From the NCBI GenBank assembly GCA_963749915.1, contig CAVVOP010000008.1, positions 672,001-736,000 of the forward strand: a DNA stretch of 64,000 nucleotides, in the 5' to 3' direction. This DNA comes from an uncultured cyanobacterium (GTDB taxonomy: Bacteria > Cyanobacteriota > Cyanobacteriia > Cyanobacteriales > Cyanobacteriaceae). Shown one piece after another: positions 18,001 to 27,000 of the stretch (position 1 is its first letter; the number at the start of each line of letters is the position of its first letter). Made by a program: the position numbers.

Positions 18001-21000
18001 TGAATTTAAGAAAATAGTTGAAAGAGTTGGAGAAATCTTAATCTGTACTGATTTTAATAAAAATCCTGTTACTTTAGCTTGTACTGGCAATATTGAGACT
18101 TTAGAAGGCAAAATCAATGGTGCCTCCATCGAAGGAAATAATGCCATTCTTAAACTATCCGCTAATAATCAAATCTATAATCTTTCTCTCTCTTTAAAAA
18201 TTACTCAAGAGTTATTTGATAGTGATAAATTGACTGATATACAAGGAAAATCAGTGATAGTCAAAACTAATCAAATTAATGGTAATAACGTCAAAATCAA
18301 TCAAACAAATCAACTTAAAGTGAAAAATAATTAATTTAGCTATTTCCCCTGACGAAAAATGGATTTCTTTACTTATTGCTTATCGATCGAAATCATGCTA
18401 GCATTGCGGGGTTTAACCTCAGGTCTGTCAAGATGGTTTTGAGGGACTGGGAACGGATAATTTTGGATTTTGGAGGATTGTTTTATCCCTCATTTCAAAA
18501 TTGGCAGACCACTAGATGTTTTAGTCCTATTGAACAGTTAACTAAGAGAAAGTAACAGCAAGACCTAGAGACATGAATAAACTTATATATTCAATTACCC
18601 CAGTTGGTCTGGGTTATGCATCAATAATCTTTGTCGGCTTTGTGACTGTGATGTTTTTGGCTACAATCTTCTTGCCAGGGAAACAATATACAGGCTGTTT
18701 ACAACCAGACGGTAATCGCAAAACTTACAAACTTAATGGATTGCTGGTATTTATAGCAACTACCCTCATTGTAGCAGTACTCACCTTCAGATTCCACCTG
18801 ACACTCGCACCCCTAATTACCTATTTCTGGTCTTTGTTCATTGTTGCTAACCTATTTGCTTTTCTTTGGACTGGCATTTTATATGTAAAGACGCAAAGAA
18901 AACAGGCTGTTAGTAATCAACCACAACCGTTGGCTAAAATCTTTAGTAATTTATGGTTTGGCATGGAACTCAACCCAACTTGGCTGGGGGTTGATTTAAA
19001 AATGTTCGCCTACCAACCCTCTCTCATTAGTTTAGGACTAATAAATGCAGCATTTGCCTACGTGCAATCTGAAAAGTACGGGGAAATTACTCCACAAATG
19101 TTGATGTTCCAGGGGTTTTGGTGGCTGTACCTTGCCACTCACTATTACTATGAAGAATTCATGCTTTCGACCTGGGACATTATTGCTGAGAAATTGGGGT
19201 TCATGTTGATCTGGGGGGACTTAGTTTTGGTTCCTTTCTTTTACAGTATCATCGGCTGGTATTTAGTGGATGTAATTGAACCAATCCCAGTAGCTGGAGT
19301 AATTGCTATTAGCTTGCTTTACCTCGTGGGATTAACGATATTTCGGGGTGCTAATGCCCAAAAGCATCGCTTCAAGAAAAATTTTCAGGCAAGGATTTGG
19401 GGTCAGCCAGCTCAAACTTTAGAAGGAAAGCTTTTGGTGTCTGGTTGGTGGGGTATTGGTCGCAAGCTTAACTATACAGGTGAAATTTGTGTCTATTTTG
19501 CACTAGCATTAACCACCGGGTTTAACTCAATTATCCCCTACCTGCTACCTCTGTGGTTGTGCGTCCTCTTATCTCATAGGGCATGGCGTGACGAACAGCG
19601 TTGCCAAGCAAAGTATGGTAATCTTTGGAAGATTTACTGCACTAAAGTCCGATTTCGGATGCTACCCTTTGTTTATTAAACTTAAATTTTTGAAGATTAA
19701 TTTTAAAAATGGTGAGAACACTTTCCCCTGATATAGTCGTGATTGGTGCAGGTCCAGTCGGTTGCGTGACTGCCATAGCTTGGGCTCATAGTGGGGCAAA
19801 AGTCATGTTGTTGGAGGCGCAAGCCCAAAAGAAAAAACGGCTGGCAGGAGAATGGTTGCACCCCCCTGGCGTGCAAGTCTTAGAGCGTTTGGGTCTTTTA
19901 ATGGCTTTTGAGCCAGTTAATTATGCGACAGGTCTTGGTTTTGTTGTCTTTACTGATGATGGTAGTGAGCCAATTCCACTTCATTACCCTAATCATGCAA
20001 TGGGGATTAGTTGTGAACATAATCACATCGTTTCTACACTGCAGAAAGCGGCCGCTGATTGTGAGGGGGTAAATTATATCCCTAGTGCTCGGGTGACGAA
20101 GATTCAGGGGGGGCAGTTAACCTTTAAAGACCTCAAAGGAGGAGAAAATTTTACTATCTCCAGCAAACTCATTGTGGGAGCAGATGGTCGTTCCTCAGCA
20201 GCTCGCAAAGCTCTGGGTATTCCCCATAAAGTCCAACCGGTTTCCTATATGGCGGGGGTGCTACTGGAAAATGTTGAGTTACCCTTTGAAGGCTTTGGTC
20301 ATTTGTTTTTAGGGGGACCAGGACCTATCACTGCATATCGCGTTAGTCACAATCAAGTCCGTATTTGCCTCGATGTGCCACTGGATTTTTCTAAAAAATC
20401 TGTTGATTTGTGGGATGTCTATAGTCCTATTCTACCGTCGGAATTGCTGGAGGCATTTCGCCAGACCTTAGAAAAAGGGGAAGTCTTGTGGGTGGCAAAC
20501 CAGTATAGTCCTCGCATTCACTACGGTTGTCAGAGTTTGGCACTGGTAGGCGATGCAACTGGATACTTCCATCCGATGACGGCAACAGGCATGACCATCG
20601 GTTTTATGGATGCAGAGTGTCTTTTGCACAGTAACAGTTTTAACAAGTACCAGAGTCAACGTAGTTGGGGAACCTATGTGCCAGAAATGCTCGCGACTAC
20701 TCTTTATGAGGTGTTTTGCCATGATGATGACAGTGCTGTAGCCATCCGCAGGGCCGTATATAAAATGTGGCGACAAGACCCAAAAGAATGCGTTCGCACC
20801 ATGCATTTACTATCCGGCGCTCAAACAAATCTCTGGCATTTTATCAGCTCATTTCTCAAAGCATTGGTGCTGGCTGTCGAATCAGTAATCCAGAAATATG
20901 GTTCTCAGAGGCAATGGCGACAGTTGATCCCAGCTTTGGGGGCTTTTGGTAAGTGGCTGCGATGGCCCATTGTTATTGCCTGGTCCCGTCTTCCCATCAT

Positions 21001-24000: not shown

Positions 24001-27000
24001 GAAGCACCCAGTTGGCAAATGCCCAAACTTCCGGAGTGGAATTCTCAAGATTGGATCCCCTTTCAACGACGAAGTTGGAAAATCCGCACCCATCCCCAGG
24101 AAATGGCTGAGAATGCCATGGATACAGCCCATATGCTCCATTTGCACGGACAATCATTCCGCACCATAGAAAAGGCTGAGTTTGATATCAACGGTACTAC
24201 CCTTGTGCATCGATTGAGCCCCCAATATCGGTTGTCCATCTTTGGAAAATTGGGAATTGGTGCGGAGGGTTTGGTAGAAATTAGCTGCTATGGCTTGGGC
24301 TGTCAGGTTAGTTATGCCCAGGTGAAAGCGATGATTGAGTTTCATAGTCTGACGTTATTTATGCTAACTCCCATTGATGGAGAGTTTCTCGATGTCCATG
24401 TATTAGTAAGTACAAAAAAGGTCTTCAATAAAGTCATTACCTATGCCCTAAGAAGTAAAAGTATGGCGGAAGTTAGTTACAATTTAGAGCAAGATATTCC
24501 GATTTGGGAAAACAAGGTTTATCGCAGTCAGCCGTTGCTCAGTGAAGCAGATGGACCAATTATGCAGTATCGGCACTGGGGGCAACAATTTTATGCTCAT
24601 GTACCTCTGAACAGTCAATAATCTTTAGCATCGAGACTCAAGATCTATTTTTCAATTCTCCTCTTTTTTTCTGATTTTTACCTTAAGTATATATACTTAT
24701 TTTGTTTTCTTTTGTTTTAAACTGCGGAATATGGGTTTTAACTATTACTGATGCTAGAAACTTCGCTGACTCGGCGAATATTTAACACATCGCTTATGTT
24801 TTTTATTTGACTAATGACATATTGAAATTGGGCAGAATCTTGTACATCGATGGTCAAAGAAATTAACGCAGGTTTACCAAAATCCGTTTTAACACCAGCG
24901 TTACTTACGTTAATATTTTGATCCGTTAATCTTCCTAAAATATCTCGTAAGATACCAACACGATCTAAAGTTTCGATTACTATATCAACTGGGTAAGTGG
25001 CATTGCGACTTTTACCATCACAGGAATTCCATTTTACGGGAATTAAACGCTCTCCGGGGATAGTTGTTAAATTCGGGCAGTCAAGATGATGAATAGAGAT
25101 ACCACGAACATTGGTAACCACTCCGATGATATTTTCTCCGGGTAAGGCACGACAACATCCGGCTATATGATACATTAATCCTTCTACCCCACAAATGGGA
25201 TATTTATTGCTGTTGATTTCTTTATAGGTCTTTGTTGTACTCGTAGGCAAAGGACTTTCTCCTAAAGTTTGGGGTTTAACTTCAGGTTGTTGTTGTTTGT
25301 TTTCTTCTCGCAGACGGTTAATAATCTGCGTACAGGTCACTTCACCATAACCCAGTGAGGCTAATAAATCATCTACTTTTTGAAAATTGCATTTTTGTGC
25401 TACTTTTTGCATGGTATCCGACTTTAAGAGAGATTCTAAACCGTTTTTGCCCAATTCCTTCTCTAATAATTCTCTACCTCTGGCTATGTTTTCATCTCGA
25501 TGGGATCGCTTATACCATTGACGAATACGGTTTTTTGCACTGGGAGTTACCACGAAATTGAGCCAATCGAGACTAGGATGACTATTATTGCTAGTTACAA
25601 TTTCTACTATATCTCCATTTTTGATAGCCTGATCAAGAGGACACCATTTACCGTTAATTCTTGCTCCTTTCATGTGATTGCCTACCTCACTATGAATGCG
25701 ATAGGCAAAATCAACCACCGTTGCACCCCTGGTTAAAGGGATAACTTCGCCTTTGGGAGTAAAACCGTAAACATCATCATCGAATAAATTTTCCTTGAGA
25801 TTATCTACATATTCCTGTGCGTCTTTTAAGTCTTTTTGCCAATCCAATAATTGCCGTAACCACGTAAATTTTTCCTCATCGCTGGATAAATGAGTATTAC
25901 TAGAATTTCCCGCTTCTTTATATTTCCAATGGGCGGCAATACCATATTCAGCGATATAGTGCATTTCTAGGGTACGAATTTGTATTTCCAACGGACGCCC
26001 ATTAGAATTAACCACACTAGTATGCAGAGATTGATATAAATTAGGTTTCGGTAAACCGATATAGTCCTTAAATCTTCCCGGAATCGGGCGAAAAGCATCA
26101 TGAACCACTGCTAAAGCACGATAACATTCATCATTAGTATTAACAATAATTCTCACACCAGCCATATCATAAATTTGCTCAAACTCTTTATTTTGAAGCT
26201 CCATCTTATGATATATCCCGTATAGGTGCTTAGGTCTGCCTTTGACTTCTACAGGTTTAATATGCAGTTTTTCTAAGCGTTGGTTAATGATTTTAACAAC
26301 ATTTTCAATTCTTGCTTCTCTATCTTTGCGTCTTTCAGCAATTAATCCCTTAATGGTGGTATAGGCGATAGGATTAAGATATTTAAAAGATAAGTCTTCT
26401 AACTCCCATTTAAAATGCCACATACCGAGACGATTGGCTAGAGGGGCGAAAATTTCTTTGGTTTCTTCGGCAATTAACCTTTGTTTTTCGGGTGCTAAAA
26501 ACTCAAGGGTACGCATATTGTGCAATCTATCTGCCAATTTTACCACAATCACTCGAATATCTTGAGCCATGGCCACAAACATTCGTCGAAAATTCTCGGC
26601 TTGTCTTTCTGTTTTACTGGAAAAATTAAATTTCGATAACTTTGTTACTGCCTCTACTAATTGACGCACATTTGCACCGAATAAGGCTTCGATTTCATCG
26701 GGAGTAATATCAGTATCTTCGACGACATCATGTAAAAAACCTGCGGCAATCATTTCACTATCACCACCCAAATCCCGTAATAACTCGGCAACTGCTATGG
26801 GATGGGCGATATAAGGTTCACCGGATTTACGATATTGTCCTTCATGTAAAGAATAAGCGAATTGAAATGCCCTACATATTAGGTTATTATCGCGATCGTT
26901 TTGGTCGCCGATTAAACAATTATTTAACCAATTGGGAATATGTAATTTCTTGTCTGGTTTAATTTCAGGAATTAGGGTGGTTGTATTCATAATCGGGGAT

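What a model noticed while it worked through the whole genome (the two positions that open the first line are those of the whole stretch)
18573..24621. Near-complete cholesterol-type sterol pathway in a unicellular cyanobacterium
A five-gene cluster (C-14 sterol reductase, squalene epoxidase, oxidosqualene cyclase, ERG2/sigma-1-like C-8 isomerase, Neverland-like Rieske oxygenase) lies on the main chromosome, with further sterol genes elsewhere: DHCR7 homologue (g01152, C8:510463-511746), GGR-type reductase + SdmB + CYP51 + SdmA (g04129-g04132, C27:131161-135914) and an ERG3-like desaturase (g01710, C11:25956-26732). I read this as a full route from squalene to C-4/C-14-demethylated, delta7-reduced (cholesterol-like) sterols in a unicellular Geminocystis, going beyond the sets listed for filamentous cyanobacteria. 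New would be a DHCR7 + C-5 desaturase + Neverland-type 7-desaturase complement in a cyanobacterium and a [...]
Evidence so far: Swiss-Prot best hits (swissprot.tsv, call 53): g01300 40% to Arabidopsis delta14-sterol reductase; g01301 27% squalene epoxidase; g01302 34-37% lanosterol/cycloartenol synthase over 650 aa; g01303 40% sigma-1 receptor/ERG2 family; g01304 33% cholesterol 7-desaturase Neverland; g01152 47.6% Arabidopsis DWF5 (7-dehydrocholesterol reductase, E 1e-137); g04130 42% sterol demethylase protein B; g04131 39% sterol 14-demethylase; g04132 45% Rieske monooxygenase; g01710 31% ERG3. relatives.tsv: ERG4_ERG24, SE, ERG2_Sigma1R 0 of 6 in genus, 0 of 19 in family, 13-41 of 1012 in order. 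In Lee et al. 2023 Supplementary Data the 8 listed cyanobacteria (all filamentous) have no entry for 7-dehydroreductase [...]
(Added by a program. Inside this text positions count along the whole contig: contig position 672,001 is position 1 of the stretch shown here. "Call 12" and the like, gene names such as g00115 and contig names such as C1 are that model's own, and its searches are not shown. The text may have been shortened before it was handed on; [...] marks where a part breaks off. The agent that wrote the report below was given it as the finding of a first reader that could run no searches.)

Follow-up and report, generated by a model that had tools for sequence, protein, structure and literature searches.

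The report
Acquired sterol pathway in a cyanobacterium
A cyanobacterium whose close relatives lack sterol genes has picked up, from filamentous cyanobacteria, a gene set for making cholesterol-like sterols, now split into three pieces, with one step (the C-5 desaturase) still unassigned.

Summary
The five + strand genes at 18573-24621 are real: C-14 reductase, squalene epoxidase, oxidosqualene cyclase, ERG2-type C-8 isomerase and a KshA/Neverland-family Rieske oxygenase. The genes named elsewhere in the genome are also there.

This is not a new pathway. The window cluster plus the C27 cluster (Bsr-SdmB-CYP51-SdmA) is a split copy of one contiguous nine-gene cluster. That cluster is found in Calothrix rhizosoleniae, Rivularia and a Nostoc MAG at 66-90% protein identity, against 64% for SpoT. 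OSC was not found in 25 relatives or in 400 sampled cyanobacteria, so the genes were acquired horizontally.

The DHCR7-type gene is genuine and distinct from the C-14 reductase. It is not unique: Scytonema PCC 10023 has one inside its cluster. A 96-nt relic of its 3' end sits next to Bsr.

The "ERG3-like" gene is not supported. Its relatives occur in 51 of 400 OSC-less cyanobacteria.

The Rieske gene is tied to sterol clusters: 9 of 12 OSC-bearing genomes against 5 of 400. A Neverland-type role is unlikely. It is the best candidate for the missing ring desaturase or for a sterol hydroxylase. There are no lipid or RNA data.

The parts
18422..18515 (.). Copy of a roughly 94-nt dispersed host repeat (MITE-like), directly upstream of the first sterol gene
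   Evidence: blastn finds dozens of copies on at least 10 contigs. One lies directly after the SdmA-like gene on C27 (C27:135927-136004). Logan contigs of all four runs break here.
18573..19679 (+). Sterol C-14 reductase (ERG4_ERG24 family, 368 aa)
   Evidence: Pfam PF01222 2e-74. PDB 4quv delta(14)-sterol reductase 3.6e-66. 77-85% identical to the homologues in the Calothrix rhizosoleniae, Rivularia, Hormoscilla and Nostoc-MAG clusters. Falls in the C-14-reductase clade of the tree. dN/dS 0.11 against Rivularia.
19709..21034 (+). Squalene monooxygenase/epoxidase (441 aa), overlapping OSC by 17 nt
   Evidence: Pfam SE 1.1e-28 and FAD_binding_3 2.6e-20. GxGxxG at residue 13. 64-70% identical to the cluster homologues. 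Fused to OSC in some relatives, for example the 1114-aa Rivularia protein.
21018..23003 (+). Oxidosqualene cyclase (661 aa), probably a lanosterol synthase
   Evidence: TIGR01787 539 bits (cut-off 323). TIGR03463 718 bits (cut-off 851). Human lanosterol synthase 1w6k 8.9e-138. DCTAE catalytic motif at 396. Val at the position of human V453, His at C449, Ala at T381. H390 and V394 are invariant in an alignment that includes the Calothrix NIES-4071 OSC.
23039..23635 (+). ERG2/sigma-1-type sterol C-8 isomerase (198 aa)
   Evidence: Pfam PF04622 3.5e-59. 62-85% identical to homologues in 7 of 12 cyanobacterial loci. The family is found in 8 of 12 OSC-bearing cyanobacterial genomes.
23632..24621 (+). 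KshA/Neverland-family Rieske non-haem-iron oxygenase (329 aa), overlapping ERG2 by 4 nt. A sterol-modifying oxygenase of unknown regiochemistry
   Evidence: Pfam Rieske 6.8e-24 and KshA_C 6.4e-34. PDB KshA 2.1e-40. CPH...CPFH at 55-78 and E160/D164/H167/H172 are intact. The orthologue lies upstream of Bsr, adjacent or one or two genes away, in L018, L019, L020, L022 and L024. Matches in 9 of 12 OSC-bearing genomes against 5 of 400 OSC-less genomes.
15446..18334 (+). Upstream flank: host Ser/Thr kinase fusion protein, not part of the pathway
   Evidence: Pfam Pkinase 8e-36 and Phosphonate-bd 9e-17. GC 0.32 against 0.41-0.47 for the cluster genes.
24738..26990 (-). Downstream flank: host RelA/SpoT gene, convergent, 117 nt from the Rieske stop codon
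   Evidence: TIGR00691 885 bits. 87-92% identical in same-genus genomes, 64% in the sterol-bearing filamentous cyanobacteria.

Best explanation
The window holds the first half of a horizontally acquired cyanobacterial sterol-biosynthesis gene cluster.

In Calothrix rhizosoleniae, Rivularia and a Nostoc MAG the cluster is one block: C-14 reductase, squalene epoxidase, OSC, ERG2-type isomerase, Rieske oxygenase, Bsr-type C-24 reductase, SdmB, CYP51, SdmA. In this genome it has been broken by repeat- or IS-associated rearrangement into three pieces:
- the five genes in the window;
- Bsr-SdmB-CYP51-SdmA on contig C27;
- a DHCR7-type reductase 180 kb away on C8, which has left a 96-nt relic of its 3' end next to Bsr.

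The inferred route is as follows. Squalene comes from the native, vertically inherited squalene-synthase-like gene that also feeds the native hopene cyclase. It goes to oxidosqualene, then lanosterol. C-14 demethylation (CYP51) and delta-14 reduction follow. SdmA and SdmB remove both C-4 methyls. ERG2 moves the delta-8 bond to delta-7. Bsr saturates the side chain, giving lathosterol-type sterols. A DHCR7-type enzyme implies a delta-5,7 intermediate and a delta-5 (cholesterol-like) end product.

No credible ERG3 is present. The most economical candidate for making the 5,7-diene is the cluster's Rieske oxygenase.

What is shown: gene presence, intact motifs, synteny, horizontal origin and purifying selection. 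What is inferred: every enzymatic step and the end product.
For: Gene identities.

Catalytic motifs are intact in OSC, CYP51, both Rieske proteins and Bsr (YGWVFP at 194, Cys42).

Synteny: L018, L019 and L020 carry all nine genes in one block at 66-90% protein identity.

Horizontal origin:
- SpoT is only 64% identical to those same genomes but 87-92% within the genus.
- A C27 flank gene is 75-83% identical within the genus and 45-47% to Calothrix and Rivularia.
- The sterol genes have GC 0.41-0.48 against 0.375 for the genome.
- OSC was found in 0 of 25 relatives and 0 of 400 sampled cyanobacteria.

Selection: pairwise dN/dS is 0.06-0.25 for all nine genes against Rivularia.

Rearrangement: the 96-nt relic is 95% identical in DNA, and 29 of 31 residues identical, to the 3' end of the genome's own DHCR7-type gene. 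It lies 75 nt upstream of Bsr. The region upstream of the DHCR7-type gene is dispersed repeats plus an ISL3 transposase fragment.

DHCR7 type:
- It falls in a deep clade separate from the C-14 reductases. It is sister to the Scytonema gene, inside a clade of sequences from Polyangia genomes and MAGs and unnamed metagenome contigs that includes Minicystis rosea P0055.
- M. rosea makes 7-dehydrocholesterol and cholesterol (Lee & Welander 2025, Results part 1 and supplement part 1 read).
- JGI names many of the hits 7-dehydrocholesterol reductase.
- The nearest Atlas clusters include chordate DHCR7 at 0.97, against lamin-B receptor at 0.89.

Functional anchors in print (Lee et al. 2023, passages read; Lee & Welander 2025): the Calothrix NIES-4105 OSC makes lanosterol, its SdmAB removes both C-4 methyls, and the Sandaracinus Bsr reduces C-24.

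Native squalene supply: an Sqs-like gene is 86-91% identical within the genus, and the hopene cyclase is 80% identical.
Against: - There are no lipid or expression data. No RNA holder was listed.
- The genome appears to come from sediment metagenomes. No independent contig bridges the cluster junctions.
- SdmA, SdmB and OSC score below NCBIfam's strict cut-offs: 407 of 600, 327 of 600 and 718 of 851.
- A C-5 desaturase is unassigned.
- An EXPERA/EBP-like gene lies between Rieske and Bsr in three relatives. It was not found in this genome.
- In Scytonema the DHCR7-type protein is the only full-length ERG4_ERG24 protein found. This clade might therefore carry out C-14 reduction rather than, or as well as, delta-7 reduction.
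- Atlas also ranks an ascomycete ERG4/ERG24 cluster at 0.97. An ERG4-like specificity is therefore not excluded.
- The tree had no experimentally characterised eukaryotic anchors, and it is the quick tree rather than the finished careful search.
- Lee et al. 2023 themselves called sterol production by Calothrix inconclusive.
Confidence: 0.7

Rival explanations
1. The pathway is functional but ends at delta-7 (lathosterol-type) or delta-8 sterols. The DHCR7-type protein would then be a second C-14 reductase or a C-24(28)-type reductase, and no 5,7-diene is ever made.
For: No sterol-linked ERG3 is present. Scytonema has only the DHCR7-type ERG4_ERG24 protein although it has CYP51. Atlas ranks an ascomycete ERG4/ERG24 cluster level with DHCR7. 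NCBI names the M. rosea homologue delta(24(24(1)))-sterol reductase.
Against: This genome keeps both paralogues, and both are intact. The clade includes the homologue from M. rosea, which makes 7-dehydrocholesterol and cholesterol. JGI assigns the name 7-dehydrocholesterol reductase. C-24 reduction is already covered by Bsr.
Confidence: 0.25
2. The Rieske protein is a Neverland/DAF-36-type cholesterol 7-desaturase. It would turn the delta-5 end product back into a 5,7-diene.
For: It belongs to the KshA/Neverland family. NCBI names three Nostoc sp. DSM 114161 homologues (55-56% identical) cholesterol 7-desaturase.
Against: Five of the six other genomes with the orthologue (56-81% identical) have no DHCR7-type gene. 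Three of those five also lack a close relative of the FA_hydroxylase gene. No delta-5 substrate is foreseeable in those genomes. In this genome the enzyme would simply oppose DHCR7.
Confidence: 0.12
3. The genes are a decaying relic of a transfer and no longer form a working pathway.
For: The cluster is split three ways. There is a 96-nt gene relic next to Bsr. IS and repeat debris surrounds the DHCR7-type gene. The EXPERA/EBP-like gene seen in relatives was not found here.
Against: All ten ORFs are full length with intact catalytic motifs. dN/dS is 0.06-0.25, although that figure averages over both lineages.
Confidence: 0.1
4. The sterol genes are a binning or assembly artefact and belong to a filamentous cyanobacterium in the same sample.
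For: The genome appears to be metagenome-derived. The cluster's GC differs from the genome's. No Logan contig bridges the junctions.
Against: - The window cluster lies inside a 940-kb contig. SpoT, 117 nt away, is 92% identical to a same-genus genome.
- The C27 flank gene is 83% identical within the genus.
- C8 and C27 share host repeats and the DHCR7 relic.
- In three runs, summed contig depth over the cluster and the flanks lies in the same low range.
Confidence: 0.03

Closest known systems
Sterol gene cluster of Calothrix sp. NIES-4105/4071 and Calothrix rhizosoleniae SC01 (Lee et al. 2023, Nat Commun, PMC10202945)
   Same: It has the same nine genes, and in C. rhizosoleniae the same order: C-14 reductase, SQMO, OSC, ERG2-type isomerase, Rieske, Bsr-like GGR, SdmB, CYP51, SdmA. 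Protein identity to C. rhizosoleniae is 70-89%. OSC is 65% identical to the Calothrix NIES-4071 protein. The key OSC residues are the same.
   Different: Here the cluster is split over two contigs. The genome adds a separate DHCR7-type paralogue that the Calothrix genomes lack. The EXPERA/EBP-like and Cupin_8 genes of the C. rhizosoleniae cluster were not found here. The host belongs to a family in which OSC was found in 0 of 15 searched genomes.
Sterol cluster of Scytonema sp. PCC 10023 (genome record only; two searches found no paper that describes it)
   Same: Among the genomes I searched, it is the only other cyanobacterium with a DHCR7-type gene. The gene is 67-68% identical and sister to ours in the tree. 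The cluster also has OSC, ERG2, two Rieske genes, Bsr, SdmB, CYP51 and SdmA.
   Different: In Scytonema the DHCR7-type gene sits inside the cluster, between ERG2 and Rieske. No separate C-14-reductase-type gene was found in that genome.
Myxobacterial cholesterol pathways: Enhygromyxa salina, Sandaracinus amylolyticus, Minicystis rosea (PMC10202945, PMC12004948)
   Same: The chemistry is the same: CYP51, C-14 reductase, SdmAB, C-8 isomerase, DHCR7, and Bsr for C-24 reduction in the latter two. Our DHCR7-type protein is 53% identical to the M. rosea homologue.
   Different: The myxobacteria have ERG3-type C-5 desaturase homologues (for E. salina). None of the 68 non-cyanobacterial loci has a KshA-type Rieske gene above about 31% identity; 3 of 68 have one at about 30%. 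Sterols have been measured there, not here.
Neverland/DAF-36/Tetrahymena DES7 Rieske sterol 7-desaturases and actinobacterial KshA
   Same: The domain pair is the same, Rieske + KshA_C, with intact Fe-S and Fe ligands. The family acts on the steroid nucleus. The Rieske nature of the Tetrahymena C-7 desaturase is stated in PMC9485055 (passage read).
   Different: At 329 aa the protein is shorter than the KshA chains (386-394 aa). It is embedded in a biosynthetic rather than a catabolic cluster. The expected substrate in most host genomes is a delta-7 or delta-8 sterol, not a delta-5 sterol or a 3-ketosteroid.

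Membership tests
Bacterial (cyanobacterial-type) sterol biosynthesis gene cluster | Adjacent squalene monooxygenase and oxidosqualene cyclase | tested here: met
   19709-21034 and 21018-23003 overlap by 17 nt. Pfam SE 1.1e-28. TIGR01787 539 bits against a cut-off of 323.
Bacterial (cyanobacterial-type) sterol biosynthesis gene cluster | CYP51, C-14 reductase and the SdmA/SdmB pair are present and syntenic with known clusters | tested here: met
   CYP51 matches solved CYP51 structures at 1e-130. The gene order matches L018, L019 and L020 once the two halves are joined.
NCBIfam equivalogs SdmA (NF052579) and SdmB (NF052578) | Score at or above the curated cut-off of 600 bits | tested here: not met
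   The scores are 407 and 327 bits. Both models are the best hits over the full length. The proteins are 84-85% identical to the C. rhizosoleniae homologues, whose genes Lee et al. 2023 list as SdmA and SdmB.
Oxidosqualene cyclase, lanosterol-synthase type | DCTAE catalytic Asp, and Val at the position of human V453. The role of this residue triad is recalled from the literature, not taken from a call. | tested here: met
   The alignment to 1w6k gives D396 = D455, V394 = V453, H390 = C449 and A319 = T381. The product itself cannot be tested here.
DHCR7 (sterol delta-7 reductase) subfamily of ERG4_ERG24 | Groups with DHCR7-type rather than C-14-reductase-type sequences | tested here: met
   The tree has two deep clades, with branches of 1.16 and 1.2 and SH-aLRT support of 100. 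JGI names the hits 7-dehydrocholesterol reductase. Atlas gives chordate DHCR7 0.97 and lamin-B receptor 0.89. No characterised eukaryotic anchors were in the tree.
DHCR7 (sterol delta-7 reductase) subfamily of ERG4_ERG24 | Reduces the C7-C8 bond of a delta-5,7 sterol | not testable with these tools
   Caveat: in Scytonema it is the only full-length ERG4_ERG24 protein found.
ERG3/SC5D sterol C-5 desaturase (claimed for C11:25956-26732) | FA_hydroxylase fold with three His boxes | tested here: met
   PF04116 1.2e-25. HRLFHH, HGGHH and HHAIHH are present.
ERG3/SC5D sterol C-5 desaturase (claimed for C11:25956-26732) | Occurs together with a sterol pathway | tested here: not met
   Relatives occur in 51 of 400 sampled genomes in which OSC was found in 0 of 400. 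They are present in G007, which has no OSC. They were not found in Scytonema. The nearest Atlas clusters are bacterial (Cyanobacteriota, Bacteroidota).
Neverland/KshA Rieske oxygenase family | Rieske [2Fe-2S] domain plus a KshA_C catalytic domain, with metal ligands | tested here: met
Neverland/KshA Rieske oxygenase family | 7,8-desaturation of a delta-5 sterol | not testable with these tools
   Genomic context argues against it.
Bsr (GGR-family bacterial sterol C-24 reductase, Lee & Welander 2025) | GGR family membership, YxWxFP motif, active-site Cys, and clustering with sterol genes | tested here: met
   TIGR02032 165 bits against a cut-off of 158.8. YGWVFP at 194 and Cys42. 89% identical to the C. 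rhizosoleniae Bsr-like gene. The paper's Table S2 lists a C. rhizosoleniae Bsr homologue; I did not check that it is the same gene. Activity was not tested.

The most novel reading that the evidence does not exclude
The cluster's KshA/Neverland-family Rieske oxygenase is the missing bacterial sterol C-5(6) desaturase, that is, a lathosterol oxidase. It would be a non-homologous replacement of ERG3/SC5D, just as SdmA replaces ERG25 and Bsr replaces DHCR24. It would make the delta-5,7 diene that the DHCR7-type enzyme then reduces. In cyanobacteria that have the Rieske gene but no DHCR7, the end product would be a provitamin-D-type 5,7-diene.
Probability: 0.25. Interest if true: 0.75.

Novelty: new member of a known kind. 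Interest (0 to 1): 0.45.

Why it matters
Sterol synthesis in cyanobacteria has long been disputed, and it bears on how sterane biomarkers are read. This genome shows three things.

1. The Calothrix-type cluster moves between distant cyanobacterial lineages and survives being broken up.
2. A DHCR7-type reductase, whose nearest relatives outside the cyanobacteria come mostly from Polyangia genomes and MAGs and from unnamed metagenome contigs, has been added in at least two cyanobacteria.
3. A Rieske oxygenase subfamily, not named among the sterol genes in the papers I read, tracks the pathway closely.

Together these give a short, testable list for the two unassigned steps of bacterial cholesterol synthesis: C-5 desaturation and delta-7 reduction. 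The list comprises the Rieske gene, the DHCR7-type gene, and the EXPERA/EBP-like and Cupin_8 genes in related clusters. The analysis also removes a false candidate, the widespread FA_hydroxylase gene.

Tried and rejected
I went on without it.
- Genus name and cell form: the listing of cluster members gave no names for window proteins or their nearest relatives, so "Geminocystis" and "unicellular" stay unverified.
- Expression: no RNA holder was listed.
- Independent check of the junctions: Logan contigs of four sediment-metagenome runs were laid on 16000-27500. None bridges 18300-18600 or 24600-24760, and the contigs break at the dispersed repeats. In run X1 no contig covered 18688-24447, but only about 37% of that run was read, so this says nothing.
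- Promoter and terminator scan of 18200-24850: 6 promoter-like sites against 11.7 expected, and 10 terminator-like sites against 6.6 expected. Uninformative.
- Insertion site: gene order around SpoT is conserved only on the side away from the cluster. Synteny within the genus is too scrambled to define an empty site.
- Metagenome scan with the DHCR7-type alignment: of 33 loci of 10 kb or more, only 2 also carry OSC. One is the Scytonema-like contig L125 and the other is L157. Context therefore gave little beyond Scytonema.
- PDB search with the FA_hydroxylase protein found nothing relevant.
- Sterol_MT_C (PF08498) gave no match in the genome, but the control rang nowhere, so this is not evidence of absence.
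- The reading that the Rieske gene is an SdmA paralogue is rejected.
- The Sqs-like gene on C22 was considered as a fourth dispersed cluster piece. This is rejected: it is 86-91% identical within the genus, so it is native.

Full report
**Observation**

They carry the stated domains:
- ERG4_ERG24, 2e-74
- squalene epoxidase, 1.1e-28
- both squalene/oxidosqualene cyclase domains
- ERG2_Sigma1R, 3.5e-59
- Rieske + KshA_C

The cyclase passes the general squalene/oxidosqualene cyclase model (539 bits, cut-off 323). It falls short of the strict OSC subfamily cut-off (718 of 851). Gene spacing is operon-like, with gaps of 30 and 36 nt and overlaps of 17 and 4 nt.

The genes named elsewhere in the genome are also present.
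- A second full-length ERG4_ERG24 gene lies at C8:510451-511746. A 427-aa form starting at 510463 is on record as P0124.
- C27:131161-135914 holds a GGR-family reductase, an SdmB-like SDR, a P450 and an SdmA-like Rieske protein. The P450 matches solved CYP51 structures at 1e-130.
- C11 holds an FA_hydroxylase gene.

I read part 2 of the spreadsheet. Eight cyanobacteria are listed, and none has an entry for 7-dehydroreductase, C-5 desaturase or C-24 reductase.

**What it is**

A scan of one genome per species with an OSC alignment returned 80 loci, of which 12 are cyanobacterial. I laid our ten proteins on them with tblastn.

Calothrix rhizosoleniae SC01 (L018), a Nostoc MAG (L019) and Rivularia sp. 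MS3 (L020) each carry one contiguous block. Its order is C-14 reductase, SQMO, OSC, ERG2, Rieske, Bsr-like GGR, SdmB, CYP51, SdmA. Identity to our proteins is 66-90%. The window cluster and the C27 cluster are therefore two halves of this known cyanobacterial cluster, broken between the Rieske gene and Bsr.

Of the 68 non-cyanobacterial loci, many from sponge-associated MAGs, most share the core: C-14 reductase 51, SdmB 55, CYP51 55 and SdmA 54. Only 2 of the 68 have ERG2, 1 has Bsr and 3 have a Rieske homologue (about 30% identical).

**Horizontal origin**

- OSC was not found in 0 of 6 same-genus, 0 of 15 same-family and 0 of 25 related genomes. It was not found in 0 of 400 genomes sampled across the phylum. 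Relatives carry only a hopene-cyclase-like gene, 28-29% identical.
- The neighbouring SpoT is 87-92% identical within the genus but only 64% identical to the five sterol-bearing filamentous genomes tested.
- A flank gene of the C27 cluster is 75-83% identical within the genus and 45-47% to Calothrix and Rivularia. This also shows that C27 belongs to this organism.
- The nine sterol genes have GC 0.41-0.48 against 0.375 for the genome and 0.32-0.38 for their flanks.
- Pairwise dS against Rivularia is 0.5-1.1 and dN/dS is 0.06-0.25.

This genome is the recipient. The donor was close to the Calothrix/Rivularia/Hormoscilla group.

**Rearrangement**

A 96-nt stretch lies 75 nt upstream of Bsr, at C27:130992-131087. 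It is 95% identical in DNA, and 29 of 31 residues identical, to the 3' end of the genome's own DHCR7-type gene. That gene therefore once lay beside Bsr.

Today the intact copy lies 180 kb from the window cluster. Its upstream region consists of dispersed repeats and an ISL3 transposase fragment.

The same roughly 94-nt host repeat sits just before the C-14 reductase (window 18422-18515) and just after SdmA on C27. It has dozens of copies in the genome, so this could be coincidence.

**The DHCR7-type gene**

In a tree of 88 ERG4_ERG24 sequences the family splits into two deep clades. This is the quick tree; the careful search did not finish.
- Our cluster gene sits with the Calothrix, Rivularia and Hormoscilla C-14 reductases.
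- The second gene is sister to the Scytonema sp. PCC 10023 protein. Both lie inside a clade of sequences from Polyangia genomes and MAGs and unnamed metagenome contigs. That clade includes the Minicystis rosea homologue.

M. rosea makes lathosterol, 7-dehydrocholesterol and cholesterol (Lee & Welander 2025; Results part 1 and supplement part 1 read). JGI labels many of the hits 7-dehydrocholesterol reductase. The Atlas neighbours include chordate DHCR7 at 0.97, against lamin-B receptor at 0.89.

Two cautions apply.
- Atlas ranks an ascomycete ERG4/ERG24 cluster equally high.
- In Scytonema this is the only full-length ERG4_ERG24 gene found, although CYP51 is present. The clade may therefore also, or instead, reduce delta-14.

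The gene is not unique to this genome. Scytonema carries it inside its cluster, in the order OSC, Rieske, ERG2, DHCR7, Rieske, EXPERA, Bsr, SdmB ... CYP51, SdmA. Of the other 11 OSC-bearing cyanobacterial genomes, none has it.

**The "ERG3-like" gene**

- Homologues at E <= 1e-40 occur in 51 of 400 sampled cyanobacterial genomes, and about 32 of those are 52-69% identical. OSC was found in none of the same 400.
- One same-family genome, G007, has a 66% homologue but no OSC. G007 is 84% complete, and there is no shared synteny.
- Among the 12 OSC-bearing genomes, 4 have a 59-70% homologue. Scytonema does not.
- The nearest Atlas clusters are bacterial "sterol desaturase family" groups of Cyanobacteriota and Bacteroidota.
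- The genome has three further FA_hydroxylase genes. One of them is OlsE-like.

**The Rieske gene**

It belongs to the KshA/Neverland family, with KshA at 2.1e-40 and intact Fe-S and Fe ligands. It is not an SdmA orthologue.

It behaves in the opposite way to the FA_hydroxylase gene.
- Matches at E <= 1e-60 occur in 9 of 12 OSC-bearing genomes. Each match lies on a contig that also carries a sterol gene.
- Only 5 of 400 OSC-less genomes have a match at E <= 1e-40, and the best of these is 53% identical.
- The orthologue group (56-81% identical) is in 6 of the 12. All six also carry ERG2.
- In five loci it lies upstream of Bsr, adjacent or one or two genes away.
- Related clusters hold up to seven paralogues.

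These genomes are kin, so the counts are not independent.

A Neverland-type role would need a delta-5 sterol. Five of the six other orthologue-bearing genomes lack the DHCR7-type gene, and three of those five also lack a close relative of the FA_hydroxylase gene.

I see two live readings. One is a ring desaturase acting after ERG2 to give the 5,7-diene, which would fill the C-5 desaturase gap. The other is a sterol hydroxylase; Lee et al. 2023 reported 25-hydroxycholesterol in Calothrix extracts (passage read). I found no paper that assigns this gene.

**Inferred route**

1. Native squalene supply. The Sqs-like gene is 86-91% identical within the genus, and the hopene cyclase 80%.
2. SQMO.
3. 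OSC, probably making lanosterol. Val stands at the position of human V453. The key residues are the same as in the Calothrix NIES-4071 protein. The OSC of Calothrix sp. NIES-4105 makes lanosterol in E. coli.
4. CYP51.
5. C-14 reductase.
6. SdmA and SdmB. The Calothrix pair removes both C-4 methyls.
7. ERG2.
8. Bsr, with the YGWVFP motif and Cys42 intact.
9. An unassigned desaturase, possibly the Rieske protein.
10. The DHCR7-type reductase.

All of these steps are inferred from sequence.

**Limits**

- The organism appears in sediment metagenomes only, and no RNA run was listed.
- No independent contig bridges the cluster junctions.
- The genus name and cell form could not be checked.
- OSC in the unicellular Prochloron didemni is already in print (Wei et al. 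2016, passages read). Cyanosarcina also carries a cluster.

**Verdict**

This is a new member of the known cyanobacterial sterol cluster type, acquired horizontally, split up, and carrying an extra DHCR7-type gene that Scytonema also has. The ERG3 assignment is withdrawn. The Rieske gene is re-read as a sterol-cluster-specific oxygenase of unknown regiochemistry.

Noticed in passing
L018:7532-8032, L020:13716-14216, L022:11394-11903: A 166-169-aa EXPERA/EBP-family gene (PF05241, 4e-12 to 7e-15) lies between the Rieske gene and Bsr in the Calothrix rhizosoleniae, Rivularia and Scytonema clusters. All three clusters also have an ERG2-type isomerase. The gene was not found in this genome. The papers I read do not list it among cyanobacterial sterol genes.
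   Followed up: partly
L018:6124-7242, L025:12007-13110: A Cupin_8 (JmjC-like) gene lies inside or next to the sterol clusters of C. rhizosoleniae and Coleofasciculus. It is another candidate sterol oxygenase. No homologue was found in this genome.
   Followed up: partly
L019:368-6505 and L020:437-5774: The Nostoc-MAG and Rivularia clusters are extended. Both carry three further Rieske paralogues. Rivularia also has two extra SdmB-like SDRs. The Nostoc MAG also has a GT28/UDPGT glycosyltransferase, an SDR and a sulfotransferase. This suggests tailored or conjugated sterols.
   Followed up: no
G030 (Scytonema sp. PCC 10023), L022 and L098: Scytonema has CYP51, but its only full-length ERG4_ERG24 gene is the DHCR7-type one. 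Either that enzyme also reduces delta-14, or the C-14 reductase is missing from the assembly.
   Followed up: partly
C27:128726-130921 (L004:4727-6922): A catalase-peroxidase-like gene (Pfam peroxidase 1.3e-71) with GC 0.586 lies directly upstream of the DHCR7 relic and Bsr, in a genome of GC 0.375. It is probably a separate horizontal acquisition at the rearrangement breakpoint.
   Followed up: no
window 15446-18334: A 962-aa fusion protein. It has an N-terminal region resembling a type I restriction endonuclease (residues 12-233, 75 bits, far below the cut-off), a Ser/Thr kinase domain and a C-terminal phosphonate-binding periplasmic domain.
   Followed up: no
window 18422-18515; also 11343-11576, 11677-11743, 29451-29514, 319-463: Several families of short dispersed repeats (about 60-240 nt, 85-100% identical) have many copies across the contigs. 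The genome is rich in MITE-like elements, and contigs of public runs break at them.
   Followed up: partly
L030-L097: Most of the 68 non-cyanobacterial OSC loci come from MAGs of many phyla: Gamma- and Alphaproteobacteria, Chloroflexota, Nitrospirota, Rhodothermota and others. Several have sponge-related names. They share a conserved block of C-14 reductase, fused SQMO-OSC, SdmB, CYP51 and SdmA at 45-65% identity to ours.
   Followed up: no
C11:25956-26732: The FA_hydroxylase gene has GC 0.462. It is missing from 6 of 6 same-genus genomes but is 66% identical in one other genus of the family, with no shared synteny. It looks like a separately acquired accessory gene of unknown substrate.
   Followed up: partly
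G198:C9:92013-92963: One OSC-less cyanobacterium in the phylum sample has a 53%-identical homologue of the Rieske protein. The subfamily is therefore not strictly confined to OSC-bearing genomes.
   Followed up: no
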